Positions 1,744 to 26,715 of a DNA stretch of 64,000 bases are shown here, piece after piece (positions within the stretch are counted from its first letter, which is position 1; each line of letters opens with the position of its first letter). The stretch lies in assembly GCA_000092065.1 (NCBI GenBank), contig CP000597.1, one strand, 5' to 3'. Made by a program: the position numbers and the translations under genes. Below the pieces are notes generated by a model. It worked only from the letters and a program-made list of their open reading frames with translations. It searched no databases and was not told the origin of the DNA. The stretch comes from Ostreococcus lucimarinus. Taxonomy: Eukaryota.

Positions 1744-1746
1744 GCG

Positions 1747-3195
1747 TCAACGTCGCCGCTTGACGCCGTGGATGATGGAGGCGTACAAATCGAACTGAAA
1801 GCTCGCGGCGACGTCGTCAGCGAATGGATAAGGCGCACCACAGCGGTACGCGGCGACGAGACCGGAAATGATGGCGATCTCGTGCGTGTTGACCGAAGTG
1901 TACGAGCCGGCGTAGAGCGTACGACGCTTGTTTTGGACGAAACGCCAAAAAGGTACGGCGCGCGTGAAATGCCGAACCGTGTGGCCGAATTGTCGCCACC
2001 ACTTGACGAGTAAAACGCGATTTGGGTCGATTTCGTCGCGAGTCCATCGCGATTTGTCTTTTGCGGCGTTCAAGAAGATGGATTGATACACTCGCTCGCC
2101 GTTCGCGCCCTTGGCGAACGGTTGGTACGCCGTCAGGTCGAAGCTCATCTCGCACAGCGACGGATCATCGTCGTAAGATTTGATAAAGTACATATCGCGC
2201 ACGTCTTCCGCGACTTCGTAGTGCTTCTTCATGTAAGCCTCATCGGAATGCGTGACGGAGACGTCGTCAAAGTACTCGATGTTGTTGAAAATGTGGCGCT
2301 CCATCATCGACGTCCCCGTGCCCGCATCGAGCATCGCCTTCGACTGCTCGGTGTTACACGCGAAAATCACGCGATCGCACTCTCGCACCTCGATCGCCCC
2401 TTCGGCGTTTTCAAAGTGCACTCGAACGCACTTTTTCTCGCGCTCAACCTTGACCACGCGCGCGTTCAACGTCACCCGACCCCCGTGACTCGTTATGTCC
2501 TCCCCGATCCGACGATACATCTCCGAAAACTTTGGAAACGCAAACATTTTCGGCGCTTCGCTCATAAACCGCACGGGATCGTAATCATACAACCGCAATC
2601 GATCATCGTTGAACACGCGCGCGAGCACGATGCTGCTCACCTTGCGCGTGCAGTTCCCCGTCCCAAAAAACAACGCCGTCGTCGCGTACACCATCCGATC
2701 CCGAAACGCCTTCGAGTGTCCGTGCCATCGCAGCGCTCGCTCCACGCTCACGAACGCGTACAGCGCCTCGAACCGTTTTATGCGTTTCAGCGTCTTTTCA
2801 AACCTCGCGATGTCGTCTCGCAGCGCTCGCGTCAGCGCCGTCGCCTCCCCGTGATTCCGCCAGTGCGCCTCTCCTCGCCCGAAGCTCACTCGGACGTCCA
2901 CCCAATGCGGCGTCTCCGTCCCGCACGCCTCCATGATCGCTCGCGCGTTCGCGTAGCTCGTCGCGCCGCCCTGCACGCCGTCGTTGATGGTCGTCCCGCC
3001 CACGACCTCGCTCGTCGCGACGCCGCCGAGCGCGTCGCCGCGCTCGAGCGTCTCCACGTCCGCGCCCGCGCGCGCGAGCGCGAACGACGCCGCGCACCCG
3101 GCCGCGCCGCCGCCGACGACGACGACGCGCATCGCGCGCGTCGCTCGCGCGTCGGCGTGTCCCGACGGTTCGCGTCGCGTGACGTCACCCCGCAC
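1747..3195 (-). CDS. FAD/NAD(P)-binding oxidoreductase (amine-oxidase-like fold); specific enzyme not identified.
   Basis: N-terminal dinucleotide-binding motif VVVVGGGAAGCAASFALARAG...DVETLERGDALGG. 482-aa uninterrupted ORF with non-repetitive composition. Confidence 0.5.
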   Translation of the reverse strand: MRGDVTRREPSGHADARATRAMRVVVVGGGAAGCAASFALARAGADVETLERGDALGGVATSEVVGGTTINDGVQGGATSYANARAIMEACGTETPHWVDVRVSFGRGEAHWRNHGEATALTRALRDDIARFEKTLKRIKRFEALYAFVSVERALRWHGHSKAFRDRMVYATTALFFGTGNCTRKVSSIVLARVFNDDRLRLYDYDPVRFMSEAPKMFAFPKFSEMYRRIGEDITSHGGRVTLNARVVKVEREKKCVRVHFENAEGAIEVRECDRVIFACNTEQSKAMLDAGTGTSMMERHIFNNIEYFDDVSVTHSDEAYMKKHYEVAEDVRDMYFIKSYDDDPSLCEMSFDLTAYQPFAKGANGERVYQSIFLNAAKDKSRWTRDEIDPNRVLLVKWWRQFGHTVRHFTRAVPFWRFVQNKRRTLYAGSYTSVNTHEIAIISGLVAAYRCGAPYPFADDVAASFQFDLYASIIHGVKRRR

Positions 3196-3318
3196 ACGAC
3201 GACGCGCGCGCGCGCGCGCGATCGCGCGCGCGCGACGGCGGCGAGGCGCGCGCGACCGACGCGCGGCGACCGACGCGCGGCGAACGCGCGCGACGCGACG
3301 CGCGCGCGAGCGAGAGAG

Positions 3319-4767
3319 ATGGATTCGTTGGTGAATGATGACGCGGCGGCGGCGGCGGCGGCGATGACGCGCGAGGACGACGCGACGGCGGCGATCGACG
3401 GCGCGGAGACGCGCGAGACGGGCGATGGCGGTGACATCGACGCACCGCGCGCGGACGAAGCGCGGAAACCGCCGACGAATCCGAATAAGAAACGGAAGTG
3501 CGCGGTGACGTTTGCCTACGTCGGCGCCGGGTACGCGGGCATGCAGCGAAACCCGGGCGTGCGGACGATCGAGGGGGAGCTGGAGGGCGCGATCGCGCGC
3601 GCGGGAGGGATATCCGATGCGAATGCGGGCGATTTCGCGAAAGTGCAGTGGACGCGGGCGGCGAGGACGGATAAGGGGGTGTCGGCGGTGGGGCAGGTGG
3701 TGGCGCTGAAGATGGTGTTGGAACCGAGCGGGATGGTGGAGAGGATTAACGCGGCTTTGCCGGAGCGATTTGAGGTGTTTGGGATCGATCGAGTCACCGG
3801 GGGGTTTAACGCGAAGACGATGTGCGATCGGCGACGGTATGAGTACGTGATACCGACGCGGGCGTTTGATCCGAATCTCGGCGCCGAGGGCGCGGCGGAG
3901 GCGTTCGCGTTTACGGAGGAGACGCGCTCGCGGGTGGACGGTGTGCTAAAAAATTACTGCGGGACGCATAATTTTCATAACTATACGGTTAAGGTGAAAC
4001 CAACGGACGCGCAAGCGAAGCGCTACATCATAAGCTTCGAATGCTCGGCGCCGTTTGAGGTGGAGGGCGAGCAATTCGTTCGGTGCCAAGTCGTCGGGCA
4101 GTCGTTCATGTTGCACCAGATTCGCAAGCTCATCGGCACCATGCTCGCCGTCGTTCGAGGTGAGCTGACCGAGGACGACCAGAAATTTGCACTGCTCACG
4201 CACGAATTCGTGCCGACGCCCATGGCGCCCGAACTCGGGCTCTTCCTTTGCGAGTGCATCTACAAGGCGTACAACGACAAATTCGGCGGCGTGCACGAAA
4301 ACTTTGAACTGGCCAAGTACAGCGAGCGAAGCGAGTCGTTCAAGCAAACGCACGTGTACCCGCACATCGCGAAACAAGAGCGAGAGGAATCAACCATGCA
4401 AAACTGGATCCGCGACGTCCTCTGCGGGCGCGATTTACGCGACCAATTCGACGCCGCCATGGCCGCCTCGCTCGCCCGAGACGAAACCCTCGACGTCTCG
4501 CGCGTCGGCCACAGACAATCAAAGAAGCGTCAATCCCTCGAGGATTCCCGCGCCGCGCGCGCCGACGCCGACGCCTTTCGAGACGTCCTCCTCGCCGGCG
4601 CCGATCGCGCCAAGTCTCGCAAGCTCTCCGTTCGTTTCAACGACAGGAGCGCCGAAATCGACCGCGCCGCGTCCGCCGCGCGCGTCGTCCCCATCGCGCC
4701 CCCCCCGCCCCCGACTTCTCGCGCTCGCGCGCTCGACGACGCCGAGCTCAGCGACGGTTCGCTGTAA
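3319..4767 (+). CDS. tRNA pseudouridine synthase, TruA/Pus1 family. Start placed at the ATG at 3319; the 5' part of the 894-aa ORF-track entry is antisense noise over the upstream gene.
   Basis: TruA-family motifs: KKRKCAVTFAYVGAGYAGMQRNPGVRTIEGELEGAI, then AARTDKGVSAVGQVVALK (catalytic-Asp RTDKGVSA), then YEYVIPT...YCGTHNFHNYT...QIRKLIG. Confidence 0.7.
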   Translation: MDSLVNDDAAAAAAAMTREDDATAAIDGAETRETGDGGDIDAPRADEARKPPTNPNKKRKCAVTFAYVGAGYAGMQRNPGVRTIEGELEGAIARAGGISDANAGDFAKVQWTRAARTDKGVSAVGQVVALKMVLEPSGMVERINAALPERFEVFGIDRVTGGFNAKTMCDRRRYEYVIPTRAFDPNLGAEGAAEAFAFTEETRSRVDGVLKNYCGTHNFHNYTVKVKPTDAQAKRYIISFECSAPFEVEGEQFVRCQVVGQSFMLHQIRKLIGTMLAVVRGELTEDDQKFALLTHEFVPTPMAPELGLFLCECIYKAYNDKFGGVHENFELAKYSERSESFKQTHVYPHIAKQEREESTMQNWIRDVLCGRDLRDQFDAAMAASLARDETLDVSRVGHRQSKKRQSLEDSRAARADADAFRDVLLAGADRAKSRKLSVRFNDRSAEIDRAASAARVVPIAPPPPPTSRARALDDAELSDGSL

Positions 4768-4950
4768 CGCCCATCGACGCCCATTTTCATCGCTTCGCCT
4801 CCCTCGCGCCTCGCGTCCCGCGTCCGTCGCTCCCGCCTAACCACCCCTGACGAGTCGTGACCCATCGGGACCCCCGTCGAGTTTAAACCGTGCGCGCGAG
4901 CCGCGGGCGGTCGCGCACTTCGCGACGCGCCGTCGCGCGCTACGACGCGC

Positions 4951-7900
4951 ATGCGGCTCGACGACGGCGACGACGCGCGACGAAGGGACGCGCGCGCGGT
5001 TCGAGCGCGCGCGACGCGGACGCCGACGCGCGCGGCGACCACGCGCGGCGATGTCGTCGACGCCGCTGCCGCCGATGATGACATCGACGACGACGCCGTC
5101 GCGCGACCGGACGCGACGCGACGACGACGACGCGACGACGACGCGACGACGACGACGCGCGATGATGAGACGACGCGCGCGCGAGAGGGCGCGAGCGGAC
5201 GCCGGCGAGCGCGGGAACGAGGGAGAGCGACGAGGCGTCGTCGACGGCTCGGGACGGCGGCGGCGGCGGCGGCGACGGCGGCGTTGGCGGCGACGGTCGA
5301 GCGCGTCGGCGTGGACGCGTCGACGGCGCTCACGAAGGGGGTGGCGAGGAATGGTTTCGTGTCGTCGAGCGGGTATAAGTACTATAAGGTGAATGTGGCG
5401 TGCGTGGAGGCGGCGCAGCCGCTGACGTTGGAGCTGACGACGAGCAACGGGGACGCGAACTTGTACGTGTCTCGATCGGCGCAGCCGACGACTTCGTCGT
5501 ACGAACAGCGGAGCGTGAACGTTGGAAATGCGTTGGATTCGGTGACGATCACGAGTCCGGTGAATGGGTACTATTACGTGAGCGTGTACGGCGCGCTGTC
5601 CAGCACGTACAAGCTTCGAGCGCTCACGACGATGTTTACCGGGAAACATCCGTGCACGGGATTTCGAATCACCGATAGCGACGTCTCGAGCGTTGGCTCG
5701 GGATCTGGAAATCAGTTCATACTGCAAGAAGCGCTCACCGCGAGCGCGGCGGCGGGATTCACCGCGGATGTGTCCGTCGACGGCGACGTCATCCTCGGCG
5801 ACGCGTACACCGATTCGGTGACGGCGAAAGGAGAGCTCAAGCTCGGCGTGACGGACAGTACGTACTACGCCATCACGCGACAATCGCCGAGCGCACCGAG
5901 CAGCAACCCGGGCGGCGCTTTGTCGATCGTCGGCGCGAACGCGACCTATCAGGGGGGATCGGTAAAGATTCTCGGCGGAACGGGCGGTTCGGGGGCGGGC
6001 GGCGACGTCGTGATCGAGGCGGGGTCGGCGTCTGGCGGCAACGGTGGCGATTTGAAGTTACGTGGCGGCACGTCGAACTCAGGAACGGGCGGCGACGTCG
6101 TCATAGATGCCGGAGATAGCACGACACAAGCATCTTCGTACGAGGGCATCATTCACATAGGTCCAACTTCTGCGTCGTTTGTGCGCGTCGGCGAGAGTTC
6201 AAATAAGCAAGTTCAAACCGATATTTTCGGCGACTTGACGGTGCACGGAAATCTCTTGACAACGAATGATGTGGTGTACGCGAACAGCTACACGAGTTAC
6301 GTGCAGGTTTCAACCTCTCAAGACGGCATGTTTCATCAAGAAGTGCGCGCGCCAAAGATTACAGGTCTGGACGCGGAGGACATCACGGGCACTCCAACGA
6401 GCACGTTGACTTTAGACGCTGGCATGCGAGGGAGTCAGCAACACGTCGTGATCGCTCCGAGCGAGGCAACGGCGGTTTACATAGGTAGCAGCACATCCAC
6501 GATTCCGGTCTCGATAAGGCAAGGCGCGAACGCAGGAGACGTGCGAGTGCACGCTGATGGCAGCGGCGCGCTGTCCGTGACTTCGGCCGCAGGGCAGGAC
6601 CTGACGCTCGCGTCCGGCGACGACGTGGTGGTGACCACCGCGGCGAGTAAGACGCTCGCGCTGAAGCAGGACTCGACGAGCATTTTGAGCTGGGACGCGG
6701 CCGGCGCTGTGACTGTGAACTCCGTGAGCGGGCAGGACCTGACGCTGAGCACGGGCGGTAGCGCGGCCGTGACTGTGGACTCGACCGGGCAGGTGGGCAT
6801 CGGGACGACGACGCCGGGGAAGACGCTGGACGTCACCGGGACGGCGCGCGTGAGTGGCGCGACGACGCTGAGTAGCACGCTTGACGTGACTGGCGCTACG
6901 ACGCTCGCATCCGTGGGCGTGACCGGTGCGGCCACCGTCGGCGGGACTTTAGGTGTGACTGGCGCTACGACGCTCGCATCCGTGGGCGTGACCGGCGCGG
7001 CCACCGTCGGCGGGACTTTAGGTGTGACTGGCGCTACGACGCTCGCATCCGTGGGCGTGACCGGCGCGGCCACCGTCGGCACGACGCTCGGCGTGACTGG
7101 CGCTACGACGCTCACCGGCGACGTGACGATGAGCAACGACTTGACCGTGAGCGGTGCGCTTACTGTGACATCTGATGCCGCTGTGAGTTTGACCTCTGCA
7201 AGTGGTTCGGACGTGAGCTTGACGAGCGCCGGTACGGGTGGCATCGTGTTGACGTCGACGGACGACATCACGCTCGATGCTGCCGATGATGTGACGATCG
7301 ATGCCGCCGGTGCTTTGTCTTTGGAGCAGGGCGGGACGAGTATTTTGAGCTGGACCGACACCGGCGCTGTGACTTTGAACTCCTTAGGCGGGCAGACCCT
7401 GAGCGTGTCGAGCCTCAGCTCGGCCGGGAACGCGGGCGCCGTGAGCGTGTCCGGCGGCACGACGACTGGGACGTCCTCGAACACCGGCGGCGACTTGACG
7501 CTGCAATCTGGCGGCGCGCCCGCTGGCAGCGTGAACGGTGACGTTCTGGTGGACTCGGCCACTGGTCTAGGCACCGCCGGCTCGATCACGCTTCGCCAGG
7601 GGGTGGGCGGTGAGCGTGTTTCTGTGGACGCGAACGGCGCCGTGAGTCTGGACACGCACTCCGGGCAGGACCTGACGCTGAGCACGGGCGGTAGCGCGGC
7701 CGTGACTGTGGACTCGACCGGGCAGGTGGGCATCGGGACGACGACGCCGGGGAAGACGCTGGACGTCACCGGGACGGCGCGCGTGAGTGGCGCGACGACG
7801 CTGAGTAGCACGCTTGGCGTGACTGGCGCTACGACGCTCGCATCCGTGGGCGTGACCGGTGCGGCCACCGTCGGCGGGACTTTAGGTGTGACTGGCGCTA

Positions 7901-10900
7901 CGACGCTCGCATCCGTGGGCGTGACCGGCGCGGCCACCGTCGGCACGACGCTCGGCGTGACTGGCGCTACGACGCTCACCGGCGACGTGACGATGAGCAA
8001 CGACTTGACCGTGAGCGGTGCGCTTACTGTGACATCTGATGCCGCTGTGAGTTTGACCTCTGCAAGTGGTTCGGACGTGAGCTTGACGAGCGCCGGTACG
8101 GGTGGCATCGTGTTGACGTCGACGGACGACATCACGCTCGATGCTGCCGATGATGTGACGATCGATGCCGCCGGTGCTTTGTCTTTGGAGCAGGGCGGGA
8201 CGAGTATTTTGAGCTGGACCGACACCGGCGCTGTGACTTTGAACTCCTTAGGCGGGCAGACCCTGAGCGTGTCGAGCCTCAGCTCGGCCGGGAACGCGGG
8301 CGCCGTGAGCGTGTCCGGCGGCACGACGACTGGGACGTCCTCGAACACCGGCGGCGACTTGACGCTGCAATCTGGCGGCGCGCCCGCTGGCAGCGTGAAC
8401 GGTGACGTTCTGGTGGACTCGGCCACTGGTCTAGGCACCGCCGGCTCGATCACGCTTCGCCAGGGGGTGGGCGGTGAGCGTGTTTCTGTGGACGCGAACG
8501 GCGCCGTGAGTCTGGACACGCACTCCGGGCAGGACCTGACGCTGAGCACGGGCGGTAGCGCGGCCGTGACTGTGGACTCGACCGGGCAGGTGGGCATCGG
8601 GACGACGACGCCGGGGAAGACGCTGGACGTCACCGGGACGGCGCGCGTGAGTGGCGCGACGACGCTGAGTAGCACGCTTGGCGTGACTGGCGCTACGACG
8701 CTCGCATCCGTGGGCGTGACCGGTGCGGCCACCGTCGGCGGGACTTTAGGTGTGACTGGCGCTACGACGCTCGGCGGGACTTTAGGTGTGACTGGCGCTA
8801 CGACGCTCGCATCCGTGGGCGTGACCGGCGCGGCCACCGTCGGCACGACGCTTGGCGTGACTGGCGCTACGACGCTCGGCGGGACTTTAGGTGTGACTGG
8901 CGCTACGACGCTCGCATCCGTGGGCGTGACCGGCGCGGCCACCGTCGGCACGACGCTCGGCGTGACTGGCGCTACGACGCTCGCATCTGTGGGCGTGACC
9001 GGTGCGGCCACCGTCGGCGGGACTTTAGGTGTGACTGGCGCTACGACGCTCACCGGCGACGTGACGATGAGCAACGACTTGACCGTGAGCGGTGCGCTTA
9101 CTGTGACATCTGATGCCGCTGTGAGTTTGACCTCTGCAAGTGGTTCGGACGTGAGCTTGACGAGCGCCGGTACGGGTGGCATCGTGTTGACGTCGACGGA
9201 CGACATCACGCTCGATGCTGCCGATGATGTGACGATCGATGCCGCCGGTGCTTTGTCTTTGGAGCAGGGCGGGACGAGTATTTTGAGCTGGACCGACACC
9301 GGCGCTGTGACTTTGAACTCCTTAGGCGGGCAGACCCTGAGCGTGTCGAGCCTCAGCTCGGCCGGGAACGCGGGCGCCGTGAGCGTGTCCGGCGGCACGA
9401 CGACTGGGACGTCCTCGAACACCGGCGGCGACTTGACGCTGCAATCTGGCGGCGCGCCCGCTGGCAGCGTGAACGGTGACGTTCTGGTGGACTCGGCCAC
9501 TGGTCTAGGCACCGCCGGCTCGATCACGCTTCGCCAGGGGGTGGGCGGTGAGCGTGTTTCTGTGGACGCGAACGGCGCCGTGAGTCTGGACACGCACTCC
9601 GGGCAGGACCTGACGCTGAGCACGGGCGGTAGCGCGGCCGTGACTGTGGACTCGACCGGGCAGGTGGGCATCGGGACGACGACGCCGGGGAAGACGCTGG
9701 ACGTCACCGGGACGGCGCGCGTGAGTGGCGCGACGACGCTGAGTAGCACGCTTGGCGTGACTGGCGCTACGACGCTCGCATCCGTGGGCGTGACCGGTGC
9801 GGCCACCGTCGGCGGGACTTTAGGTGTGACTGGCGCTACGACGCTCGGCGGGACTTTAGGTGTGACTGGCGCTACGACGCTCGCATCCGTGGGCGTGACC
9901 GGTGCGGCCACCGTCGGCGGGACTTTAGGTGTGACTGGCGCTACGACGCTCGGCACGACGCTCGGCGTGACTGGCGCTACGACGCTCGCATCCGTGGGCG
10001 TGACCGGCGCGGCCACCGTCGGCACGACGCTCGGCGTGACTGGCGCTACGACGCTCACCGGCGACGTGACGATGAGCAACGACTTGACCGTGAGCGGTGC
10101 GCTTACTGTGACATCTGATGCCGCTGTGAGTTTGACCTCTGCAAGTGGTTCGGACGTGAGCTTGACGAGCGCCGGTACGGGTGGCATCGTGTTGACGTCG
10201 ACGGACGACATCACGCTCGATGCTGCCGATGATGTGACGATCGATGCCGCCGGTGCTTTGTCTTTGGAGCAGGGCGGGACGAGTATTTTGAGCTGGACCG
10301 ACACCGGCGCTGTGACTTTGAACTCCTTAGGCGGGCAGACCCTGAGCGTGTCGAGCCTCAGCTCGGCCGGGAACGCGGGCGCCGTGAGCGTGTCCGGCGG
10401 CACGACGACTGGGACGTCCTCGAACACCGGCGGCGACTTGACGCTGCAATCTGGCGGCGCGCCCGCTGGCAGCGTGAACGGTGACGTTCTGGTGGACTCG
10501 GCCACTGGTCTAGGCACCGCCGGCTCGATCACGCTTCGCCAGGGGGTGGGCGGTGAGCGTGTTTCTGTGGACGCGAACGGCGCCGTGAGTCTGGACACGC
10601 ACTCCGGGCAGGACCTGACGCTGAGCACGGGCGGTAGCGCGGCCGTGACTGTGGACTCGACCGGGCAGGTGGGCATCGGGACGACGACGCCGGGGAAGAC
10701 GCTGGACGTCACCGGGACGGCGCGCGTGAGTGGCGCGACGACGCTGAGTAGCACGCTTGGCGTGACTGGCGCTACGACGCTCGGCGGGACTTTAGGTGTG
10801 ACTGGCGCTACGACGCTCGCATCCGTGGGCGTGACCGGCGCGGCCACCGTCGGCACGACGCTCGGCGTGACTGGCGCTACGACGCTCGCATCCGTGGGCG

Positions 10901-13900
10901 TGACCGGCGCGGCCACCGTCGGCACGACGCTCGGCGTGACTGGCGCTACGACGCTCACCGGCGACGTGACGATGAGCAACGACTTGACCGTGAGCGGTGC
11001 GCTTACTGTGACATCTGATGCCGCTGTGAGTTTGACCTCTGCAAGTGGTTCGGACGTGAGCTTGACGAGCGCCGGTACGGGTGGCATCGTGTTGACGTCG
11101 ACGGACGACATCACGCTCGATGCTGCCGATGATGTGACGATCGATGCCGCCGGTGCTTTGTCTTTGGAGCAGGGCGGGACGAGTATTTTGAGCTGGACCG
11201 ACACCGGCGCTGTGACTTTGAACTCCTTAGGCGGGCAGACCCTGAGCGTGTCGAGCCTCAGCTCGGCCGGGAACGCGGGCGCCGTGAGCGTGTCCGGCGG
11301 CACGACGACTGGGACGTCCTCGAACACCGGCGGCGACTTGACGCTGCAATCTGGCGGCGCGCCCGCTGGCAGCGTGAACGGTGACGTTCTGGTGGACTCG
11401 GCCACTGGTCTAGGCACCGCCGGCTCGATCACGCTTCGCCAGGGGGTGGGCGGTGAGCGTGTTTCTGTGGACGCGAACGGCGCCGTGAGTCTGGACACGC
11501 ACTCCGGGCAGGACCTGACGCTGAGCACGGGCGGTAGCGCGGCCGTGACTGTGGACTCGACCGGGCAGGTGGGCATCGGGACGACGACGCCGGGGAAGAC
11601 GCTGGACGTCACCGGGACGGCGCGCGTGAGTGGCGCGACGACGCTGAGTAGCACGCTTGGCGTGACTGGCGCTACGACGCTCGCATCCGTGGGCGTGACC
11701 GGTGCGGCCACCGTCGGCGGGACTTTAGGTGTGACTGGCGCTACGACGCTCGCATCCGTGGGCGTGACCGGCGCGGCCACCGTCGGCACGACGCTCGGCG
11801 TGACTGGCGCTACGACGCTCGCATCCGTGGGCGTGACCGGCGCGGCCACCGTCGGCACGACGCTTGGCGTGACTGGCGCTACGACGCTCGGCGGGACTTT
11901 AGGTGTGACTGGCGCTACGACGCTCGCATCCGTGGGCGTGACCGGCGCGGCCACCGTCGGCACGACGCTCGGCGTGACTGGCGCTACGACGCTCGCATCT
12001 GTGGGCGTGACCGGTGCGGCCACCGTCGGCGGGACTTTAGGTGTGACTGGCGCTACGACGCTCACCGGCGACGTGACGATGAGCAACGACTTGACCGTGA
12101 GCGGTGCGCTTACTGTGACATCTGATGCCGCTGTGAGTTTGACCTCTGCAAGTGGTTCGGACGTGAGCTTGACGAGCGCCGGTACGGGTGGCATCGTGTT
12201 GACGTCGACGGACGACATCACGCTCGATGCTGCCGATGATGTGACGATCGATGCCGCCGGTGCTTTGTCTTTGGAGCAGGGCGGGACGAGTATTTTGAGC
12301 TGGACCGACACCGGCGCTGTGACTTTGAACTCCTTAGGCGGGCAGACCCTGAGCGTGTCGAGCCTCAGCTCGGCCGGGAACGCGGGCGCCGTGAGCGTGT
12401 CCGGCGGCACGACGACTGGGACGTCCTCGAACACCGGCGGCGACTTGACGCTGCAATCTGGCGGCGCGCCCGCTGGCAGCGTGAACGGTGACGTTCTGGT
12501 GGACTCGGCCACTGGTCTAGGCACCGCCGGCTCGATCACGCTTCGCCAGGGGGTGGGCGGTGAGCGTGTTTCTGTGGACGCGAACGGCGCCGTGAGTCTG
12601 GACACGCACTCCGGGCAGGACCTGACGCTGAGCACGGGCGGTAGCGCGGCCGTGACTGTGGACTCGACCGGGCAGGTGGGCATCGGGACGACGACGCCGG
12701 GGAAGACGCTGGACGTCACCGGGACGGCGCGCGTGAGTGGCGCGACGACGCTGAGTAGCACGCTTGACGTGACTGGCGTTACGACGCTCGCATCCGTGGG
12801 CGTGACCGGTGCGGCCACCGTCGGCACGACGCTCGGCGTGACTGGCGCTACGACGCTCGCATCCGTGGGCGTGACCGGTGCGGCCACCGTCGGCGGGACT
12901 TTAGGTGTGACTGGCGCTACGACGCTCGGCACGACGCTCGGCGTGACTGGCGCTACGACGCTCGCATCCGTGGGCGTGACCGGCGCGGCCACCGTCGGCA
13001 CGACGCTCGGCGTGACTGGCGCTACGACGCTCACCGGCGACGTGAGCGTCGGGACTTCCTCGGCTTTGAGTTTTGGTTCTGCAACCCGGCAGATGATCAA
13101 CTTATATGGAACAAACAACGCCATCGGCGTGCAATCGTCCACGATGTATTTTCGTAGTGCTTATAACTTTGCCTTTTTTGAAGGCGGCGTGTACACCAAC
13201 ACAGAGCTCGATCCGGGTTCGGGTGGCACTTTGCGCATGATGATTCAGAAAACCACGGGCAACGTCGGTATCGGGACGGCGAGTCCAGATTATGAACTCG
13301 ACGTGGTAGGCGATATCAACTTTTCTGGGAATCTCTATCAGGGTGGTTCGCTGTTTGCCTCCCCCTGGACGGAGAGCAGCGGTAACGTGTATCGCAGTAG
13401 CGGTAACGTCGGCATCGGGCTGACGAATCCGACCTACAATCTGCACGTTGCTGGAACGGGGCGCGTTAGTACGACGCTATCGGTGGGTCAAGATTTAACC
13501 ATCGACACGGCTGGCGACTTGAACTTTGCGGCGACGCATCGTCAGATGATCAACCTCCGCGTCGGCGCCGAGGGTTTCGGGATCGGGACGCAGATGGACA
13601 CGACGTACTTTCGCTCTCCGGGCCACTTTGCGTTCTACGAAGACGGAACGCACAGCACCACTGACTTGGACGCGAACGGTGGCACCGCGCGTCTGGTGAT
13701 CAGGAGCGGCGGGAAGGTGGGCATCGGGCGGACGAATCCGAGCTATGATCTCGACGTGGTAGGCGATATCAACTTTTCTGGGAATCTCTATCAGGGCGGT
13801 TCTCTGTTCCCGTCCCCCTCCCCCTGGACGGAGAGCGGCAGTAACGTGTATCGTAGTAGCGGTAACGTCGGCATCGGGCTGACGAATCCGAGCTACAAAC

Positions 13901-15045
13901 TGGACGTCACTGGAACAGGACACTTCACGGGCGCGACGACGATCGATGACCAACTCACCGTTGGCGGTAACGTATTGATCCAAAGTACAACCAATAAGAT
14001 TTCGTTTGGCAGCACAGCGCGTCAGTTTATTGAAACGAATAACGGTGGAATCGGAACGCAGTCAAAGACGCTGTATTTTCGTTCACAGGATTTTTTCGGC
14101 TTTTACAAAAATGGCGGTCACAACAGCGCCGATCTGAACCCAGGCGGAAGCGGGACTCTCCTTGTCGCCATTCGCGGTGACATCTCTGGTGCTCGAATGG
14201 CGATTGGATCTTCAGACACAGATAGTGGCTACGCTTTTAAGGTCACCGGGTCGGCGCAAGCGACCGCTGCGCTCGACGTAGGCACGACGCTTAATGTGGC
14301 GTCGTACGCGACAATTCGCGGCGACTTGCGCCTCAATACCGGTACTCAGCAAATAAATTTTGGTACCCAGCACCGTCAGGTTGCTGCGCTCGCGACTGGC
14401 GGCATCGGAACGCAGTCGAACACTGTATACTTTCGTTCACAGGACTTGTTTGGCTTTTATAAAGGTGGCGGCCATAGCTCTACCGCTCTTGATCCAGGCG
14501 GAAGCGGGACTCTCCTTGTCACCATTCGCGGTGACGTCTCTGGTCCTCGATTAGGAGTCGGAGTCACGAATCCCTCCTACGCTCTCGAAGTCAATGGAGC
14601 GGCGCACGTGTCTGGCGCACTGAGCAAGGGAAGTGGCTCTTTCAAGATCGATCATCCACTTCCTGAAATGAAAGACACGCATAATTTGTATCACTCCTTC
14701 ATCGAGGGACCACGGGCGGATCTCATCTACAGAGGCAAGGTTCGTTTGCAGAACGGTAGGGCGATGATAGACATCGATGCCGCATCAAACATGACGACAG
14801 GGACATTTGAAGCACTCAATCGCGACGTGCAGTCGTTCACGTCAAATGAAAGCGACTGGGACCCCGTCCGAGGTTCTGTCGTGGGCAACGTCCTCACCAT
14901 TGAGTGTCAAAACCCCACTTCGACGGCACTCATCAGCTGGCTTGTCATCGGTGAGCGTCACGATCAGCACATGTACGACACAGATTGGACCGATGAAAAC
15001 GGTCGTGTCGTTCCGGAACAATTGAAAAAGAGTGCGACGACGTGA
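4951..15045 (+). CDS. Giant (~3364 aa) repeat-rich secreted or surface protein. Architecture: PPC-like N-terminal domain, seven tandem ~300-aa units with nested 23-aa G/T/V/A sub-repeats, phage-tail-fibre-like GIGT repeats, and a C-terminal intramolecular chaperone auto-processing (peptidase S74-like) domain. Exact start uncertain: the first 100 codons are R/D low complexity and a hydrophobic signal-like segment LGTAAAAAATAALAAT lies downstream.
   Basis: Single open frame of 10 kb. The PPC-like segment is KYYKVNV...TTSNGDANLYVSRSAQP...GYYYVSVYG. The repeat unit is SGQDLTLSTGGSAAVTVDSTGQVGIGTTTPGKTLDVTGTARVSGATTLSSTLGVTGATTLASVGVTGAATVGGTLGVTG... The C-terminal part has four copies of (x)GIGTxxPxYxLDVxG / YFRSxxxFxFY motifs. 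The terminal domain GSGSFKIDHPLPEMKDTHNLYHSFIEGPRADLIYRGKVRLQNG matches the ICA / peptidase S74 signature (IDHPL...L.HSF.E.P..D.IYRG). Confidence 0.75.
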   Translation: MRLDDGDDARRRDARAVRARATRTPTRAATTRGDVVDAAAADDDIDDDAVARPDATRRRRRDDDATTTTRDDETTRAREGASGRRRARERGRATRRRRRLGTAAAAAATAALAATVERVGVDASTALTKGVARNGFVSSSGYKYYKVNVACVEAAQPLTLELTTSNGDANLYVSRSAQPTTSSYEQRSVNVGNALDSVTITSPVNGYYYVSVYGALSSTYKLRALTTMFTGKHPCTGFRITDSDVSSVGSGSGNQFILQEALTASAAAGFTADVSVDGDVILGDAYTDSVTAKGELKLGVTDSTYYAITRQSPSAPSSNPGGALSIVGANATYQGGSVKILGGTGGSGAGGDVVIEAGSASGGNGGDLKLRGGTSNSGTGGDVVIDAGDSTTQASSYEGIIHIGPTSASFVRVGESSNKQVQTDIFGDLTVHGNLLTTNDVVYANSYTSYVQVSTSQDGMFHQEVRAPKITGLDAEDITGTPTSTLTLDAGMRGSQQHVVIAPSEATAVYIGSSTSTIPVSIRQGANAGDVRVHADGSGALSVTSAAGQDLTLASGDDVVVTTAASKTLALKQDSTSILSWDAAGAVTVNSVSGQDLTLSTGGSAAVTVDSTGQVGIGTTTPGKTLDVTGTARVSGATTLSSTLDVTGATTLASVGVTGAATVGGTLGVTGATTLASVGVTGAATVGGTLGVTGATTLASVGVTGAATVGTTLGVTGATTLTGDVTMSNDLTVSGALTVTSDAAVSLTSASGSDVSLTSAGTGGIVLTSTDDITLDAADDVTIDAAGALSLEQGGTSILSWTDTGAVTLNSLGGQTLSVSSLSSAGNAGAVSVSGGTTTGTSSNTGGDLTLQSGGAPAGSVNGDVLVDSATGLGTAGSITLRQGVGGERVSVDANGAVSLDTHSGQDLTLSTGGSAAVTVDSTGQVGIGTTTPGKTLDVTGTARVSGATTLSSTLGVTGATTLASVGVTGAATVGGTLGVTGATTLASVGVTGAATVGTTLGVTGATTLTGDVTMSNDLTVSGALTVTSDAAVSLTSASGSDVSLTSAGTGGIVLTSTDDITLDAADDVTIDAAGALSLEQGGTSILSWTDTGAVTLNSLGGQTLSVSSLSSAGNAGAVSVSGGTTTGTSSNTGGDLTLQSGGAPAGSVNGDVLVDSATGLGTAGSITLRQGVGGERVSVDANGAVSLDTHSGQDLTLSTGGSAAVTVDSTGQVGIGTTTPGKTLDVTGTARVSGATTLSSTLGVTGATTLASVGVTGAATVGGTLGVTGATTLGGTLGVTGATTLASVGVTGAATVGTTLGVTGATTLGGTLGVTGATTLASVGVTGAATVGTTLGVTGATTLASVGVTGAATVGGTLGVTGATTLTGDVTMSNDLTVSGALTVTSDAAVSLTSASGSDVSLTSAGTGGIVLTSTDDITLDAADDVTIDAAGALSLEQGGTSILSWTDTGAVTLNSLGGQTLSVSSLSSAGNAGAVSVSGGTTTGTSSNTGGDLTLQSGGAPAGSVNGDVLVDSATGLGTAGSITLRQGVGGERVSVDANGAVSLDTHSGQDLTLSTGGSAAVTVDSTGQVGIGTTTPGKTLDVTGTARVSGATTLSSTLGVTGATTLASVGVTGAATVGGTLGVTGATTLGGTLGVTGATTLASVGVTGAATVGGTLGVTGATTLGTTLGVTGATTLASVGVTGAATVGTTLGVTGATTLTGDVTMSNDLTVSGALTVTSDAAVSLTSASGSDVSLTSAGTGGIVLTSTDDITLDAADDVTIDAAGALSLEQGGTSILSWTDTGAVTLNSLGGQTLSVSSLSSAGNAGAVSVSGGTTTGTSSNTGGDLTLQSGGAPAGSVNGDVLVDSATGLGTAGSITLRQGVGGERVSVDANGAVSLDTHSGQDLTLSTGGSAAVTVDSTGQVGIGTTTPGKTLDVTGTARVSGATTLSSTLGVTGATTLGGTLGVTGATTLASVGVTGAATVGTTLGVTGATTLASVGVTGAATVGTTLGVTGATTLTGDVTMSNDLTVSGALTVTSDAAVSLTSASGSDVSLTSAGTGGIVLTSTDDITLDAADDVTIDAAGALSLEQGGTSILSWTDTGAVTLNSLGGQTLSVSSLSSAGNAGAVSVSGGTTTGTSSNTGGDLTLQSGGAPAGSVNGDVLVDSATGLGTAGSITLRQGVGGERVSVDANGAVSLDTHSGQDLTLSTGGSAAVTVDSTGQVGIGTTTPGKTLDVTGTARVSGATTLSSTLGVTGATTLASVGVTGAATVGGTLGVTGATTLASVGVTGAATVGTTLGVTGATTLASVGVTGAATVGTTLGVTGATTLGGTLGVTGATTLASVGVTGAATVGTTLGVTGATTLASVGVTGAATVGGTLGVTGATTLTGDVTMSNDLTVSGALTVTSDAAVSLTSASGSDVSLTSAGTGGIVLTSTDDITLDAADDVTIDAAGALSLEQGGTSILSWTDTGAVTLNSLGGQTLSVSSLSSAGNAGAVSVSGGTTTGTSSNTGGDLTLQSGGAPAGSVNGDVLVDSATGLGTAGSITLRQGVGGERVSVDANGAVSLDTHSGQDLTLSTGGSAAVTVDSTGQVGIGTTTPGKTLDVTGTARVSGATTLSSTLDVTGVTTLASVGVTGAATVGTTLGVTGATTLASVGVTGAATVGGTLGVTGATTLGTTLGVTGATTLASVGVTGAATVGTTLGVTGATTLTGDVSVGTSSALSFGSATRQMINLYGTNNAIGVQSSTMYFRSAYNFAFFEGGVYTNTELDPGSGGTLRMMIQKTTGNVGIGTASPDYELDVVGDINFSGNLYQGGSLFASPWTESSGNVYRSSGNVGIGLTNPTYNLHVAGTGRVSTTLSVGQDLTIDTAGDLNFAATHRQMINLRVGAEGFGIGTQMDTTYFRSPGHFAFYEDGTHSTTDLDANGGTARLVIRSGGKVGIGRTNPSYDLDVVGDINFSGNLYQGGSLFPSPSPWTESGSNVYRSSGNVGIGLTNPSYKLDVTGTGHFTGATTIDDQLTVGGNVLIQSTTNKISFGSTARQFIETNNGGIGTQSKTLYFRSQDFFGFYKNGGHNSADLNPGGSGTLLVAIRGDISGARMAIGSSDTDSGYAFKVTGSAQATAALDVGTTLNVASYATIRGDLRLNTGTQQINFGTQHRQVAALATGGIGTQSNTVYFRSQDLFGFYKGGGHSSTALDPGGSGTLLVTIRGDVSGPRLGVGVTNPSYALEVNGAAHVSGALSKGSGSFKIDHPLPEMKDTHNLYHSFIEGPRADLIYRGKVRLQNGRAMIDIDAASNMTTGTFEALNRDVQSFTSNESDWDPVRGSVVGNVLTIECQNPTSTALISWLVIGERHDQHMYDTDWTDENGRVVPEQLKKSATT
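6727..13050 (+). repeat. In-frame coding tandem array of seven near-identical units (933, 864, 1074, 1005, 900 and 1107 bp spacing between unit starts, plus a last unit). Each unit contains a variable number of a 69-bp (23-aa) sub-repeat and 33/36-bp partial variants.
   Basis: Unit starts (codon CAG of SGQDL) at 6733, 7666, 8530, 9604, 10609, 11509 and 12616. All spacings are divisible by 3 and differ by multiples of 69, 36 or 33 bp. Units appear essentially identical at nucleotide level by eye. Confidence 0.9.
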
Positions 15046-15163: not shown

Positions 15164-18100
15164 CTATAGTCTAAAAGATAGCTTTGCGAACTCTCCGTCG
15201 GACACCGCGTCGCTCGTCTGCCCCCCCGTCGCGCCGTCATCGCTCGTTTCGCTTCCGAGCAACGAAGACGCCTTTCGCCGGCGCTCAGGCGAATCGTCCG
15301 CGTCCCGAAAATCGTAGAGATAATCGCTATGCCTTGCATAATGCACCCGCGTCGCTTCTTCTCCTGAGGCATTAAATCTATACGACTCGGGAGAAAATGA
15401 TGACTGAGCGAATCTGTCCTCATCTGACGCGCTCTCTTCGGCGTCGTACGATTCACCCATGGAATACGCCAGTTCGCTCGGTTCACGTTCACTCAGTCCA
15501 TCATTCGGTGTATTCAGCCCTGGTTGGCGTCCACTAGATGGGTCTTTCATCTCAAACGCGTAATGATCGTCATCCGAGTCAGCATCCGTGGAAGATGCGT
15601 AAGCACGCCGCGACTCAAACCTGTTCTCACCAAAAAATGCGGCGCCGCGTAGAGGTTCCGGTGGTTCCAGTTCTAGTTCGGGTTCCGGTTCCGGTCGCAC
15701 TTCCCGTTCTGCTGTCACATCCGTCTCTGGTGCGAGATCTAAGATGGACTGGTTCCGTCCGGGCACGACGTTACCCTGCTCTCCATTCGTCTCGAATGCG
15801 GCGAGCGTCGCGACGTGATCGCGAGCGACACTCCCGCCTCGGTGACCCTTTACGACGGCACGTTCTTCCTGAGCGCTGTGGGTGAATCTCTCAATCACGC
15901 TACGCGCTTTGGTTGATGCGTCAAATAACGCGCCACCAGGTTCGCGCGACCGCACGACTTTCTTTTTAATTCTGATTGCGAGTCGTCGAAGCTGAATCGT
16001 GTGCTTGATAATTTCCACCACCTCCTCGGTGTCGTACAGTCCCTCGTCGTCCGCTGATACTGAGAATCTTTCGAGAATGATCGCCACAAATAAATTTCCG
16101 AGCAAAAATATAGAGATGATGACAAATGATATAAAGTATGGGACCGCAGCAGCGTTATACGAGCAGTCGATGCTGGATTCCAACATGAACGGTGCTTCTG
16201 TGCGTAAGCACGCCTCTGTTTGGTACACCTCGCCGAACGTGCCAACCCAGCCACCCGTGTACACCCCGATGAGAGATGAGCAAGCTGTGGTGAATCGTTG
16301 AAAGTTCGAGTACTTCGATAGCACGCCGCCTTCGAAAGGGCCGGTTTCATCGCCGAAAAGTGAAACACCCATGATGGCGTACGAAAAGATCGCGAGGGAC
16401 GATAGCGCGGCGACGTTTCCGACACCCGGAAGACTCATTATGAACGTGTTGAAGAGCGACCGCAGCCCAGAATGTGCCTTTACCAGTTTCAGTAATCTCA
16501 ACAATCTCACCAATTGTAGGTAATTCATGACACCGCCTGCGTTTAGACTTTGTCCGATCGCCTGTACGATGGAAACTACGACGACGAAGGCGTCCAGCCA
16601 ATTCCAATAATTCCTAAAGTAACGCGTCCGACCTTGCGCCATGAGCAAAAGCATCATTTCCAAAGAGTACACCGCAGTGAACGCGATAGACATGCAGAAG
16701 TGAGCATATTCTGCTGAACTGCTCATATTCGCCGTTTGTGTCAAGAGCTCGATTAAATTTGCGCACACTACCACGAGGATGAAGTACGCAAACTTTTTCG
16801 GCTTTGAGATATGATGCGCAAGTAGACGAGCTCGCGACCAAAGGCTTTTGCCTGGCGGCGGTACGATTCTGCGCCATGCCTCTGAATCTTGCGTGCTTGC
16901 ACGTAGTATAGCCTGCTGCCAGCGCCGCTGCGCTGGGGTGACAAACGTAAGCTTGTCTTGCGAAGCCATCTTGTTAAAGTTGTCCACGAGCGCCGTGACT
17001 AATAAATTCAACCAAAAGAAATTCCCGATGGCGACCGTCAATACAAAATAAAGAGCGGCGGCTTGGTTGTTATCTGTTTTCAAGCCGGTCCCGACGCCTG
17101 TGGTATCCATGGCGACCCACATGATTTCTTGCCAGTCATCGCCGGCGTGCAGTAGAAACGTCGATAAAAGTGCAGCGCCAAAGTTATCAAAGTTGAACTT
17201 TGCATTTCGCCACTTTCCTCCCGCTGCCTCGCACGTTGCTTGTGTAGTGTAGCTACTCGCATCATTCACCACTCGACACGACCAAAACTTACCCATAAAG
17301 AGCTCCATACCAAGAAGTGCGAAAATTGACATGGAAACTAAACCGATGAAGCACACGTAACTTACGGCTGGGATCGCGGAAAGTACAGTGTTAACGACAA
17401 GGCGGAGACCAGGGAAACGACGAATGGATCGAAGCGGGCGCATGATTCGCAAAAGTCGAAGTGCTCGCACGCTTCCGCTGCCATCGTCTGCCGCGGTGAG
17501 CGAAATGATTGATGTAAAGACGACGACGCCATCGAGAATGTTGAAGGAATTCTTCAGATACGCAGTCGGTCGCTCGTACAACCCGTAGGCGAATAACTTT
17601 AATACCATCTCTGCGCCAAATAAAGTCGTAAAAGTAATATCAACCGCGGTGTACACTTTTGCAGTATGAGATCCCGCCACTGGCCAAGTCTTTGTTTCTG
17701 TCGCGAGTAACACGCTACCAGCGATGATCATGCATAGAATGGCGTTCTCAAAGAGGTTGTGTGAAACAATTTTGTGCACCAAGTATTTGTATCTCTCGAC
17801 GGGAATCGTATCGTCGTACAGCGGTATAAAGTCGCCATCTTTTGTGACGATCACGCCCGGTATCTCTGACGACTGTTTCTTCACGCGTGAGGAGATGGAT
17901 CTCGTGATTGTCGCCGCCCAAGGACCGTGCGCGTCAAAGACGACATGCTCGTCTTCCTTACTCTTATCCTCGATGCTTAAACGATTGTTTTGCGCCGCAA
18001 ATCTTTTCGTCATACTGTGCCTAATAGAACTTTTGATAGAGCTAGTCACCCCGAACGCTTTGTCTTGATAGTCTTGATACTCCACAAACTTTGGCGTCAG

Positions 18101-25892: not shown

Positions 25893-25933
<41 letters not shown>

Positions 25934-26653: not shown

Positions 26654-26715
<62 letters not shown>

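What the first reader, a model, noticed from the sequence alone, without database searches (positions are those of the whole stretch)
4951..15045. Eukaryotic 10-kb gene with phage tail-fibre-like architecture and a C-terminal intramolecular-chaperone auto-processing (peptidase S74) domain
The + strand encodes a 3364-aa protein, apparently without introns. It begins with a PPC-like domain (GDANLYV motif). It then carries kilobases of G/T/V/A-rich 23-aa sub-repeats (GATTLASVGVTGAATVGGTLGVT), typical of beta-helical fibre shafts, and four copies of a GIGTxxPxYxLDVxG / YFRSxxxFxFY repeat, as in phage and chlorovirus fibre proteins. It ends with GSGSFKIDHPLPEMKDTHNLYHSFIEGPRADLIYRGKVRLQNG, which matches the signature of the endosialidase / tail-spike intramolecular chaperone (ICA, peptidase S74) domain. 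That domain autocatalytically cleaves itself off after trimerisation and is otherwise known in eukaryotes mainly from MYRF. A nuclear, high-GC gene with a shaft-plus-ICA architecture suggests a self-processing trimeric surface or adhesion fibre, or an ancient horizontal acquisition from a phage or giant virus that has since been ameliorated to host codon usage.
Basis: partly seen in the sequence, partly recalled or inferred. Interest (0 to 1): 0.85.

Follow-up and report, generated by a model that had tools for sequence, protein, structure and literature searches.

The report
Algal giant fibre with virus-type tip

Summary
The 3364-aa ORF at 4951-15045 (+) is real. It lies between ordinary eukaryotic genes. 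The PPC domain, the 23-aa shaft sub-repeats, the four YFRS modules and the quoted C-terminal sequence are all present.

The C-terminal "IDHPL" domain belongs to a very large family with no Pfam model: about 11,000 clusters at 50% identity, and at the C-terminal end in 149 of the 150 best-scoring members listed.
- Its nearest viral relatives (74-76% identity) are proteins beside the capsid genes of prasinovirus-like contigs.
- Cyanophage tail-fibre proteins are 50-56% identical.
- Bacterial chromosomal copies are 35-43% identical.

Ostreococcus tauri has a homologous ORF of at least 3515 aa, annotated only as a partial "phage tail fiber-like protein". Relatives start with a signal peptide. Repeat number differs between assemblies of the same locus.

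Best reading: a secreted or surface-anchored fibre built like a viral fibre. Its cellular role is not established.

The parts
4951..15045 (+). Complete ORF of 3364 aa plus stop codon: giant fibre-like protein
   Evidence: ORF list and translation. Homology runs from the N-terminal PPC domain to the C-terminal domain.
4951..5247 (+). R/D/T/A-rich low-complexity N-terminal extension (aa 1-99). It is uncertain whether it is translated as drawn.
   Evidence: Simple (CGA)n-type repeats. Homologues P0139 and P0141 lack it and start with a short signal peptide. There is no other in-frame ATG before about aa 230.
5248..5298 (+). Hydrophobic segment LGTAAAAAATAALAATV (aa 100-116), preceded by RRRRR: signal-peptide core or type-II signal anchor
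   Evidence: Most hydrophobic 17-mer of the protein, Kyte-Doolittle 1.61. It corresponds in position to the signal peptides of P0139 and P0141, just before the conserved ...ST(A/T)L(T/A)KGVARNGF.
5374..5592 (+). PPC (bacterial pre-peptidase C-terminal) domain, aa 142-214
   Evidence: Pfam PF04151, E 1.2e-8 and 1.1e-9, 36-39 bits against a cut-off of 25.9. It is the only part of the N-terminal model with pLDDT around 70-80.
5701..6780 (+). G/S/T/D-rich region (aa 251-610) with GGxGGDVxI-type repeats and a highly conserved core. A beta-solenoid is inferred but not shown.
   Evidence: 76% identical to O. tauri over 283 aa. 51 invariant columns across 12 homologues. The AF2 model is of low confidence.
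6781..13044 (+). Shaft: 7 macro-repeats (aa 611-2698). Each has a GIGTTTPGKTLDV head and a variable run of 11/12-aa GVTGATTL(ASV/GGTL) units; the first six also carry a constant 201-aa module.
   Evidence: The module types are also present in the O. tauri ORF.
7111..7713 (+). First of six constant 603-bp modules that are 100% identical in DNA. The others are at 7975-8577, 9049-9651, 10054-10656, 10954-11556 and 12061-12663.
   Evidence: Direct comparison: 603/603 identical for all six.
13045..14610 (+). Region of GIGT/YFRS modules (aa 2699-3220): four YFRS modules and five GxVGIGxxxPxYxLxV motifs. Shared with prasinovirus-like proteins and phage tail-fibre families.
   Evidence: PHROG tail-fibre family phrog_9942, E 4.6e-11. 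34-55% identity to proteins of prasinovirus-like contigs. GC3 0.62 against 0.72-0.83 upstream.
14611..15042 (+). C-terminal 'IDHPL' domain (aa 3221-3364): all-beta knob domain of a large, unnamed family of fibre-end domains
6477..13142 (-). Antisense 'shadow' ORF of 2221 aa, confined to the repeat array. Not regarded as a gene.
   Evidence: Listed mechanically. It covers only the GC-rich repeats. All homology is on the + strand.

Best explanation
The gene encodes a secreted or N-terminally anchored extracellular fibre of a marine green picoalga (Mamiellophyceae-like). It is built on the same plan as a viral attachment fibre.

The order of parts is:
1. a signal or anchor segment;
2. a PPC domain and a conserved glycine-rich region, forming the proximal part;
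3. a long, length-variable repeat shaft;
4. a cassette of GIGT/YFRS modules;
5. a 140-aa all-beta C-terminal domain.

The C-terminal domain most likely serves as the folding and oligomerisation nucleus and the distal knob of the fibre, as C-terminal domains do in phage tailspikes and pyocin fibres. It carries a strongly conserved polar site of unknown ligand.

The C-terminal roughly 650 aa belong to a pool of modules shared with prasinovirus attachment-region proteins and cyanophage tail fibres. The N-terminal roughly 2700 aa matched only algal-type sequences and not the viral loci compared.

What is shown: the architecture, the homologies, the predicted fold class, conservation between two algae, and the absence of S74. 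What is inferred: secretion, oligomerisation, the knob role and any role at the cell surface.
For: - The gene is real and lies in a eukaryotic context.
- The same flanking ion-channel gene is found in two independent metagenome assemblies, at 99.4% identity.
- Homologues start with short signal peptides directly before the conserved N-terminal sequence. The window's only strongly hydrophobic segment lies at that position.
- PPC domain.
- The O. tauri homologue is an ORF of at least 3515 aa with the same module types and a 93% identical end domain. Third-codon positions are only 64% identical, which indicates purifying selection.
- The domain is at the C-terminal end in 149 of the 150 best-scoring family members listed.
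- The 27 viral loci (among L004-L031) that carry NCLDV capsid-protein paralogues and/or DUF5767 nearby, many also NUDIX, are 67-74% identical to the window domain. This layout matches the published prasinovirus hypervariable region (PMC12906663).
- The prasinovirus-like proteins carry F5/8-type-C carbohydrate-binding modules upstream of the domain. This fits a structural rather than a specificity role for the end domain.
Against: - No experimental or multimer-model evidence for trimerisation or secretion was obtainable.
- The shaft and N-terminal regions could not be modelled (pLDDT 46).
- The start codon is uncertain.
- 60-75% identity of the end domain across viruses of algae and of cyanobacteria, together with ten conserved polar residues, looks more like a catalytic or metal site than a passive knob.
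- The repeat array may be partly an assembly product. Six modules are 100% identical, and the gene has different lengths in L167 and L168.
Confidence: 0.6

Rival explanations
1. The C-terminal domain is an intramolecular chaperone that cleaves itself off after trimerisation. It would be either a divergent peptidase S74 or an analogous self-processing domain using the conserved Lys-x-Ser at its N-terminal boundary.
For: - The domain is C-terminal in 149 of the 150 best-scoring family members listed.
- It is unusually conserved across viruses with unrelated hosts.
- K3226, S3228, D3234, H3235, H3248 and S3249 are conserved family-wide, including in bacterial copies at 35-43% identity. They sit at the boundary with a Gly/Ser-rich hinge.
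- GIGT-type modules commonly precede S74 domains in phage fibres (own knowledge, not tested here).
Against: - No PF13884 hit at E<=1 in the host protein, and none at E<=0.01 in three viral members.
- The model is an all-beta sandwich, matching tailspike and fibre C-terminal domains rather than any S74 entry.
- In S74 the catalytic Ser lies at the cleavage site with the Lys a few residues downstream (own knowledge). Here the Lys precedes the Ser by two residues.
Confidence: 0.08
2. Antiviral receptor interference or decoy. The alga displays a fibre carrying the same end cassette as the attachment-region proteins of its prasinoviruses. The fibre would occupy or mask the ligand those proteins use, or bind virions, much as captured retroviral env genes block receptors in animals. 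In the reverse direction, the viruses copied a host self-binding tip in order to dock on cells.
For: - 74-76% identity of the end domain, and 34-55% of the GIGT/YFRS modules, to proteins lying between capsid-gene paralogues of prasinovirus-like contigs. That region is described as the host-interaction hypervariable region (PMC12906663).
- The viral-type cassette has lower GC3 (0.60-0.62) than the rest of the gene.
- Module number differs between assemblies of the same locus whose flanks are about 99.4% identical.
- A relative, P0141, carries a different C-terminal domain.
Against: - There is no functional evidence.
- The sister grouping of the host and prasinovirus clades has only 4-14% bootstrap support.
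- The end domain is equally conserved in cyanophages, so it is unlikely to encode host-specific recognition.
- The low GC3 extends into the neighbouring ion-channel gene, so it may be regional.
- The O. tauri copy has host-like GC3 of 0.71.
- No PADLOC defence-family hit.
- The length differences may be assembly artefacts.
Confidence: 0.15
3. A non-functional remnant or an artefact: an endogenised viral gene decaying in the nuclear genome, a contaminant, or an ORF inflated by mis-assembled repeats.
For: - Six 603-bp modules are 100% identical.
- A MEGAHIT contig of the same locus encodes only 826 aa.
- The L167 version has broken reading frames in the repeat region.
- The exact 3364-aa product is not on record anywhere.
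Against: - The 10-kb reading frame is uninterrupted and has host-like GC3.
- Both flanks are eukaryotic housekeeping genes, and the same neighbour is seen in three assemblies.
- O. tauri keeps an open frame of at least 3515 aa.
- The end domain is under purifying selection between the two algae.
- The N-terminal 490 aa are conserved at 71-81% in related environmental sequences that start with signal peptides.
- No capsid or other viral genes lie nearby in the window.
Confidence: 0.07

Closest known systems
Large proteins of the prasinovirus hypervariable region (described in PMC12906663 as FhaB-like / phage tail fibre proteins); examples here are L008:6722-10486 and L004:3237-8735
   Same: - The C-terminal IDHPL domain is the same, at 74-76% identity.
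- GIGT/'DVVGDINFxGNxYQxG' modules are shared at 34-55% identity.
- Both are very long, beta-rich and modular.
   Different: - The viral proteins have FG-GAP and F5/8-type-C modules. They lack the PPC domain, the conserved glycine-rich region and the GVTGATTL shaft.
- GC3 is 0.28 against 0.60.
- They lie between capsid genes of a virus, not in a nuclear chromosome.
Cyanophage tail-fibre-like proteins: P-SSM2 PSSM2_295 (Q58M60) and the S-TIM5/54/61/66 virion structural proteins
   Same: Same C-terminal domain family, 50-56% identical over 84-91% of the 164-aa query, E 1e-41 to 1e-44. TM-score 0.78 in BFVD. The domain is at the extreme C-terminus.
   Different: The upstream parts are unrelated. 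These are phage virion components of bacterial viruses.
C-terminal beta-sandwich domains of phage tailspikes and fibres: Pam1 tailspike 7eea, R2 pyocin fibre 6cl6/6cu2, K1 lyase 7w1c, AP22 gp53 4mtm
   Different: Only 74-99 of 164 residues align, at 11-20% identity and TM-score about 0.35. There is no significant sequence relationship (7eea E 0.48 in the profile search). The conserved K/S/D/H/H/S/E motif was recognised in the IDHPL family alignment; its presence in these structures was not checked.
Peptidase S74 / endosialidase-type intramolecular chaperone domain (PF13884; also in MYRF)
   Same: C-terminal position on a fibre. It is often preceded by GIGT-like modules (own knowledge). A role as a C-terminal folding nucleus is plausible for both.
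   Different: No sequence-profile or structural match in any search. Self-cleavage is not shown.
Ostreococcus tauri 'phage tail fiber-like protein, partial' (P0017; locus KZ155793.1, L003)
   Same: Homologous giant gene. The end domain is 93% identical, the glycine-rich core 76% and the constant shaft module 61%.
   Different: It has no YFRS modules, a different repeat organisation and different neighbouring genes. In the public record it is annotated only as a 186-aa fragment.

Membership tests
Peptidase S74 / intramolecular chaperone auto-processing domain | Significant match to the Pfam Peptidase_S74 profile (PF13884) | tested here: not met
   No hit at E<=0.1 for the whole protein or at E<=1 for the last 400 aa. 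No hit in the viral family members L004, L001 and L002.
Peptidase S74 / intramolecular chaperone auto-processing domain | Structural similarity to solved ICA domains (endosialidase CTD, T5 pb1, MYRF) | tested here: not met
Peptidase S74 / intramolecular chaperone auto-processing domain | Ser-Lys dyad with autocatalytic cleavage at the Ser after trimerisation | not testable with these tools
   K3226 and S3228 are conserved family-wide, but in the order K-x-S and in a non-S74 fold. Cleavage needs mass spectrometry or mutagenesis.
IDHPL C-terminal fibre-end domain family (unnamed, no Pfam model; includes P-SSM2 Q58M60) | Full-length sequence match with the conserved SKGSGSFxIDHPL...HSFxExP...YxG...W...RxD motif, at the protein's C-terminus | tested here: met
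   1090 hits at E<=1e-3, the best at 60-99% identity. 10,990 clusters in the profile search. All conserved family residues are present in the window sequence. 14 residues follow the last one, D3338, that is absolutely invariant.
PPC (bacterial pre-peptidase C-terminal) domain, PF04151 | Pfam profile match above the gathering score | tested here: met
   36.2 and 39.5 bits against a cut-off of 25.9. aa 142-214 cover profile positions 2-70 of 70.
Phage tail fibre / tailspike (functional class) | Homotrimeric fibre with a C-terminal end domain | not testable with these tools
   Only monomer prediction was available. The predicted fold class and the homology to annotated tail-fibre proteins are consistent with this.
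Phage tail fibre / tailspike (functional class) | Component of a virion, encoded in a viral structural module | tested here: not met
   The gene lies between a pseudouridine synthase gene and an ion-channel gene in a eukaryotic chromosome. No viral genes are found among the window's large ORFs.
Known anti-phage defence proteins (PADLOC) | Match to a PADLOC model | tested here: not met
   No hit at E<=0.01 for three segments.

The most novel reading that the evidence does not exclude
A picoalgal nuclear gene and the hypervariable attachment genes of the alga's own giant viruses draw on one pool of fibre modules. The host deploys its copy at the cell surface to interfere with viral docking by receptor masking or as a decoy. 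This would be a protist counterpart of receptor interference by captured retroviral env genes, and the strain-to-strain differences in repeat and module number would record an arms race. A second, independent possibility is that the IDHPL domain is a new self-processing C-terminal chaperone, analogous to S74 but unrelated to it.
Probability: 0.15. Interest if true: 0.8.

Novelty: new variant of a known kind. Interest (0 to 1): 0.55.

Why it matters
Prasinoviruses are major mortality agents of Ostreococcus and Micromonas-type picoalgae. How they attach, and how hosts resist them, are open questions.

This host gene carries the same end domain and adjoining modules as proteins of the viral hypervariable region. 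It is conserved between at least two algae and may vary in length between strains. That makes it a concrete candidate for a surface molecule involved in virus-host contact, and O. tauri is genetically tractable.

Separately, the IDHPL domain is a very large family (about 11,000 clusters) of viral and bacterial fibre-end domains. It has no Pfam model and no solved structure, and it carries a strongly conserved polar motif. Its function is worth determining in its own right.

The finding also corrects a tempting mis-annotation. GIGT modules followed by a conserved C-terminal domain do not by themselves indicate S74.

Tried and rejected
- **Contamination or provirus:** rejected, given the eukaryotic flanks, the same neighbour in L167 and L168, and host-like GC3.
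- **Structure of the N-terminal 493 aa:** uninformative, pLDDT 46. Only the PPC part folded.
- **Naming the organism:** failed. An exact look-up of the 3364-aa product found nothing. The neighbouring genes are found only in unnamed ENA, JGI, Logan and Tara metagenome sequences. The only named relative is O. tauri.
- **Look-up of the second O. tauri fragment, P0150:** failed.
- **AFDB50 fold library:** not available.
- **Direction of transfer:** the NJ tree placed the host clade next to the prasinovirus clade. Bootstrap support was only 4-14% for that grouping and about 50% for host monophyly, against 90% for the prasinovirus clade. No direction of transfer is claimed. A first bootstrap script timed out.
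- **FG-GAP ORF at 24102-26957:** no similarity to the viral FG-GAP proteins.
- **PADLOC:** no hit.
- **Literature:** searches for the motif and for a host 'tail fiber' gene in Ostreococcus or Micromonas found no description of this host gene.
Full report
**Observation**

The + strand ORF at 4951-15045 is present and encodes 3364 aa. The window is eukaryotic. Its other large ORFs encode CCDC93, an importin-5-like protein, a four-domain voltage-gated-type cation channel, a protein kinase, a bifunctional chorismate-utilising enzyme and a tRNA pseudouridine synthase. GC is 0.60-0.72 over most of the window.

The protein is 66% Thr, Gly, Ser, Ala and Val, and has only three Cys. Pfam confirms the PPC domain at aa 142-214 (E 1e-8 to 1e-9, above the cut-off). 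Tandem Repeats Finder confirms the 69-bp (23-aa) and 105-bp (35-aa) units. YFRS occurs four times, and GxVGIGxxxPxYxLxV motifs occur in the C-terminal 650 aa and at the head of every macro-repeat.

- The shaft consists of seven macro-repeats. Each has a head and a variable run of 11/12-aa units, and the first six also end in a constant 201-aa module.
- The six constant 603-bp modules are 100% identical in DNA.

The 2221-aa antisense ORF at 6477-13142 is confined to the repeats, and I regard it as a shadow ORF.

**The S74 claim**

No Peptidase_S74 hit appears for the whole protein at E<=0.1, or for the last 400 aa at E<=1. NCBIfam has nothing. A sequence search and a 33-sequence profile search of all PDB chains return no endosialidase, T5 pb1 or MYRF entry. 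Three viral members of the same family also lack the Pfam domain.

An AlphaFold2 model of the last 164 aa, built on a 33-sequence alignment, has mean pLDDT 84 and is all beta.
- Foldseek against the PDB gives the C-terminal domain of the cyanophage Pam1 tailspike (E 7e-4), followed by Klebsiella capsule depolymerases, the Sf6 tailspike and the R2 pyocin fibre.
- In BFVD the distant matches are proteins named for 'K1 capsule-specific polysaccharide lyase C-terminal domain' and 'gp53-like C-terminal domain'.

The matches are partial: 74-99 residues, TM-score about 0.35. The domain is therefore its own family within the general class of fibre and tailspike end domains. It is not an ICA domain.

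**What the C-terminal domain is**

The last 164 aa have more than 1000 homologues at 58-99% identity in marine metagenomes. A profile search of 1.84 billion cluster representatives finds 10,990 clusters at E<=1e-3 and 2,876 at E<=1e-30. In 149 of the 150 best hits the domain lies at the C-terminal end of a protein of 170-1950 aa.

Among isolated phages it occurs in cyanophages. It is found in P-SSM2 PSSM2_295, annotated 'tail fiber protein', and in the S-TIM5/54/61/66 proteins, annotated 'virion structural protein' in S-TIM61 and S-TIM66. Identity is 50-56%.

In IMG/VR at least 542 viral stretches carry it. 27 of the loci L004-L031 (67-74% identity over the query) are flanked by NCLDV major-capsid-protein paralogues and/or a DUF5767 gene, many also by a NUDIX gene, and have GC of 0.36-0.39. 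This is the layout published for the prasinovirus hypervariable, host-interaction region: it is delimited by capsid genes, has NUDIX downstream, and holds large FhaB-like or tail-fibre-like proteins (PMC12906663).

In bacterial genomes, copies on long contigs are only 33-44% identical (Acidobacteriota, Planctomycetota, Bacteroidota, candidate phyla). The 54-68% matches are all on MAG contigs shorter than 3.5 kb, which may be mis-binned.

Across 144 sequences, 69 of them bacterial, the following are conserved in at least 90%, most of them invariantly: K3226, S3228, G3229, F3231, I3233, D3234, H3235, P3236, L3246, H3248, S3249, F3250, E3252, P3254, Y3260, G3262, W3330, R3336 and D3338. So many conserved polar residues suggest a defined site for a metal, a ligand or catalysis.

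**The rest of the protein and its relatives**

A segment-by-segment tblastn against all fetched loci gave these results.
- The PPC domain matched none of the fetched loci. It is shared only with the environmental proteins.
- The glycine-rich region and the shaft modules matched only algal loci: O. tauri (76% and 61%) and a second strain.
- The GIGT/YFRS cassette also matches prasinovirus-like proteins, at 34-55%.
- The end domain is 93% identical to O. tauri and 74-76% to prasinovirus-like proteins.

A search with aa 118-610 found only 14 proteins. All were environmental except one O. tauri fragment.

Two of these, P0139 (778 aa, 81% identical) and P0141 (723 aa, 71%), begin with short classical signal peptides directly before the conserved sequence ...ST(A/T)L(T/A)KGVARNGF. 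P0141 ends in a different C-terminal domain. In the window, the equivalent position is occupied by LGTAAAAAATAALAATV, the most hydrophobic 17-mer of the protein. It is preceded by RRRRR and by about 100 aa of R/D/T-rich low complexity starting at M1. The protein is therefore exported or anchored in type-II orientation. Which of the two applies depends on the true start codon, and I could not determine it.

The O. tauri locus behind the public annotation 'phage tail fiber-like protein, partial' (P0017) actually contains an open frame of at least 3515 aa. It has the same module types and the same end domain, but different neighbouring genes. Between the two algae the end domain is 93% identical in protein but only 64% identical at third codon positions, which indicates purifying selection.

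**Variation**

Two independent metagenome contigs cover the same locus and have the same ion-channel neighbour at 99.4% identity.
- L167 has three rather than four YFRS modules, and a shaft dominated by 135-bp repeats with broken reading frames.
- L168 encodes an 826-aa form that joins window 4710-6811 to 13255-13466 and then to 14558 onward.

These differences may reflect real repeat-length polymorphism or assembly problems. Six perfectly identical 603-bp modules are very hard to assemble, so I treat the exact repeat number in the window as provisional.

**Origin**

GC3 is 0.72-0.83 over aa 1-2700, but 0.62 and 0.60 over the virus-shared cassette and end domain. The prasinovirus-like copy has GC3 of 0.28. 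The neighbouring ion-channel gene also has GC3 of 0.63, and the O. tauri end domain has 0.71, so this is only weak evidence for a later acquisition.

A neighbour-joining tree places the algal sequences next to the prasinovirus clade, inside a radiation of marine viral sequences, with the bacterial chromosomal copies outside. Bootstrap support is 90% for the prasinovirus clade, about 50% for the algal clade and only 4-14% for their sister grouping. The safe statement is that the domain is far more widespread and diverse in bacteria and their viruses than in the few algal sequences found, and that the algal and prasinovirus versions are each other's most similar relatives. The direction of exchange is open.

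**Mechanism**

I commit, at a confidence of about 0.6, to an exported fibre organised like a viral attachment fibre. The N-terminal PPC domain and glycine-rich region form the proximal part. A long beta-rich shaft follows, whose length is set by repeat number. The C-terminal beta-sandwich domain nucleates folding and oligomerisation and forms the distal knob.

The prasinovirus-like proteins carry F5/8-type-C carbohydrate-binding modules upstream of this domain, and the domain is conserved across viruses with unrelated hosts. Both points argue that it is not itself the specificity determinant.

Three rivals remain:
- an analogous self-cleaving chaperone (0.08);
- an antiviral receptor-interference or decoy role, or the reverse case of viral mimicry (0.15);
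- a decaying or mis-assembled locus (0.07).

No PADLOC defence model matches.

**Novelty**

The kind of object is known: phage-type fibre proteins and the IDHPL end domain in cyanophages. The O. tauri fragment already carries a 'tail fiber-like' label. I found no description of a host gene in the prasinovirus papers read or in the library searches.

What is new is the full architecture: a giant, exported nuclear gene of a picoalga that combines modules found only in algal sequences with a cassette shared with the alga's own giant viruses. I rate it a new variant of a known kind, with interest 0.55. The S74/MYRF angle that drove the original score of 0.85 does not hold.

Noticed in passing
window 15164-20740 (-): An intron-free gene of 1858 aa for a four-domain Ion_trans cation channel (Pfam E 5e-171). 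Its GC is clearly lower (0.50-0.54, GC3 0.63) than that of its surroundings. The exact protein heads a cluster of 256 metagenome sequences. The next closest cluster is only 62% identical, and no named organism was returned.
   Followed up: partly
window 46071-48734 (-): An 887-aa ORF in the lowest-GC stretch of the window (GC 0.47-0.50, GC3 0.57). It has no Pfam hit. It is conserved at 99% next to the chorismate-utilising enzyme gene in three metagenome contigs (L084-L086).
   Followed up: partly
window 7111-12663: Six 603-bp modules are identical at every base, while the intervening 11/12-aa unit arrays differ in number. This points to very recent duplication or gene conversion, or to an assembly that copied one consensus module.
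   Followed up: partly
L168 (ENA ERZ27251463 k141_383247) 273-2753; L167 1-8707: Other assemblies of the same locus encode an 826-aa short form (L168) and a version with 135-bp repeat arrays, one YFRS module fewer and broken reading frames (L167), although their flanks are 99.4% identical to the window.
   Followed up: partly
protein P0141 (ENA, 18.9-kb contig): A 71%-identical relative of the N-terminal 490 aa ends in a completely different C-terminal domain (...YDPPAVVAGDTYEQIDTVTGCTLGDFVRVAF...) instead of the IDHPL domain. This suggests that end domains are swapped within the algal family.
   Followed up: no
L003 (O. tauri KZ155793.1) 2-10546: The public O. tauri annotation 'phage tail fiber-like protein, partial' (186 aa) sits at the end of an open frame of at least 3515 aa made of near-identical repeats of about 135 aa. 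The gene is badly under-annotated.
   Followed up: yes
window 24102-26957 (-): The ORF has weak FG-GAP repeat hits and long poly-Ser and poly-Asp runs. Prasinovirus hypervariable regions also encode FG-GAP proteins, but tblastn found no similarity between them.
   Followed up: yes
window 4959-5296: (CGA)n and related 9-34-bp simple repeats encode the R/D/T-rich first 100 aa of the ORF. There is no in-frame ATG nearer to the signal-like segment, so the annotated start may be wrong or the protein may be type-II anchored.
   Followed up: partly
L039 (IMG/VR contig of 281 kb, GC 0.30) and L044 (388 kb, GC 0.41): The IDHPL domain also ends proteins on very large viral contigs, with quite different upstream parts. 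These include YadA-head-like AxAIG repeats, a module resembling the S74 N-terminal region ('LRPRTYLYNSD...GFIAEEV'), and WD-like and fibronectin-like modules. They were not classified.
   Followed up: no
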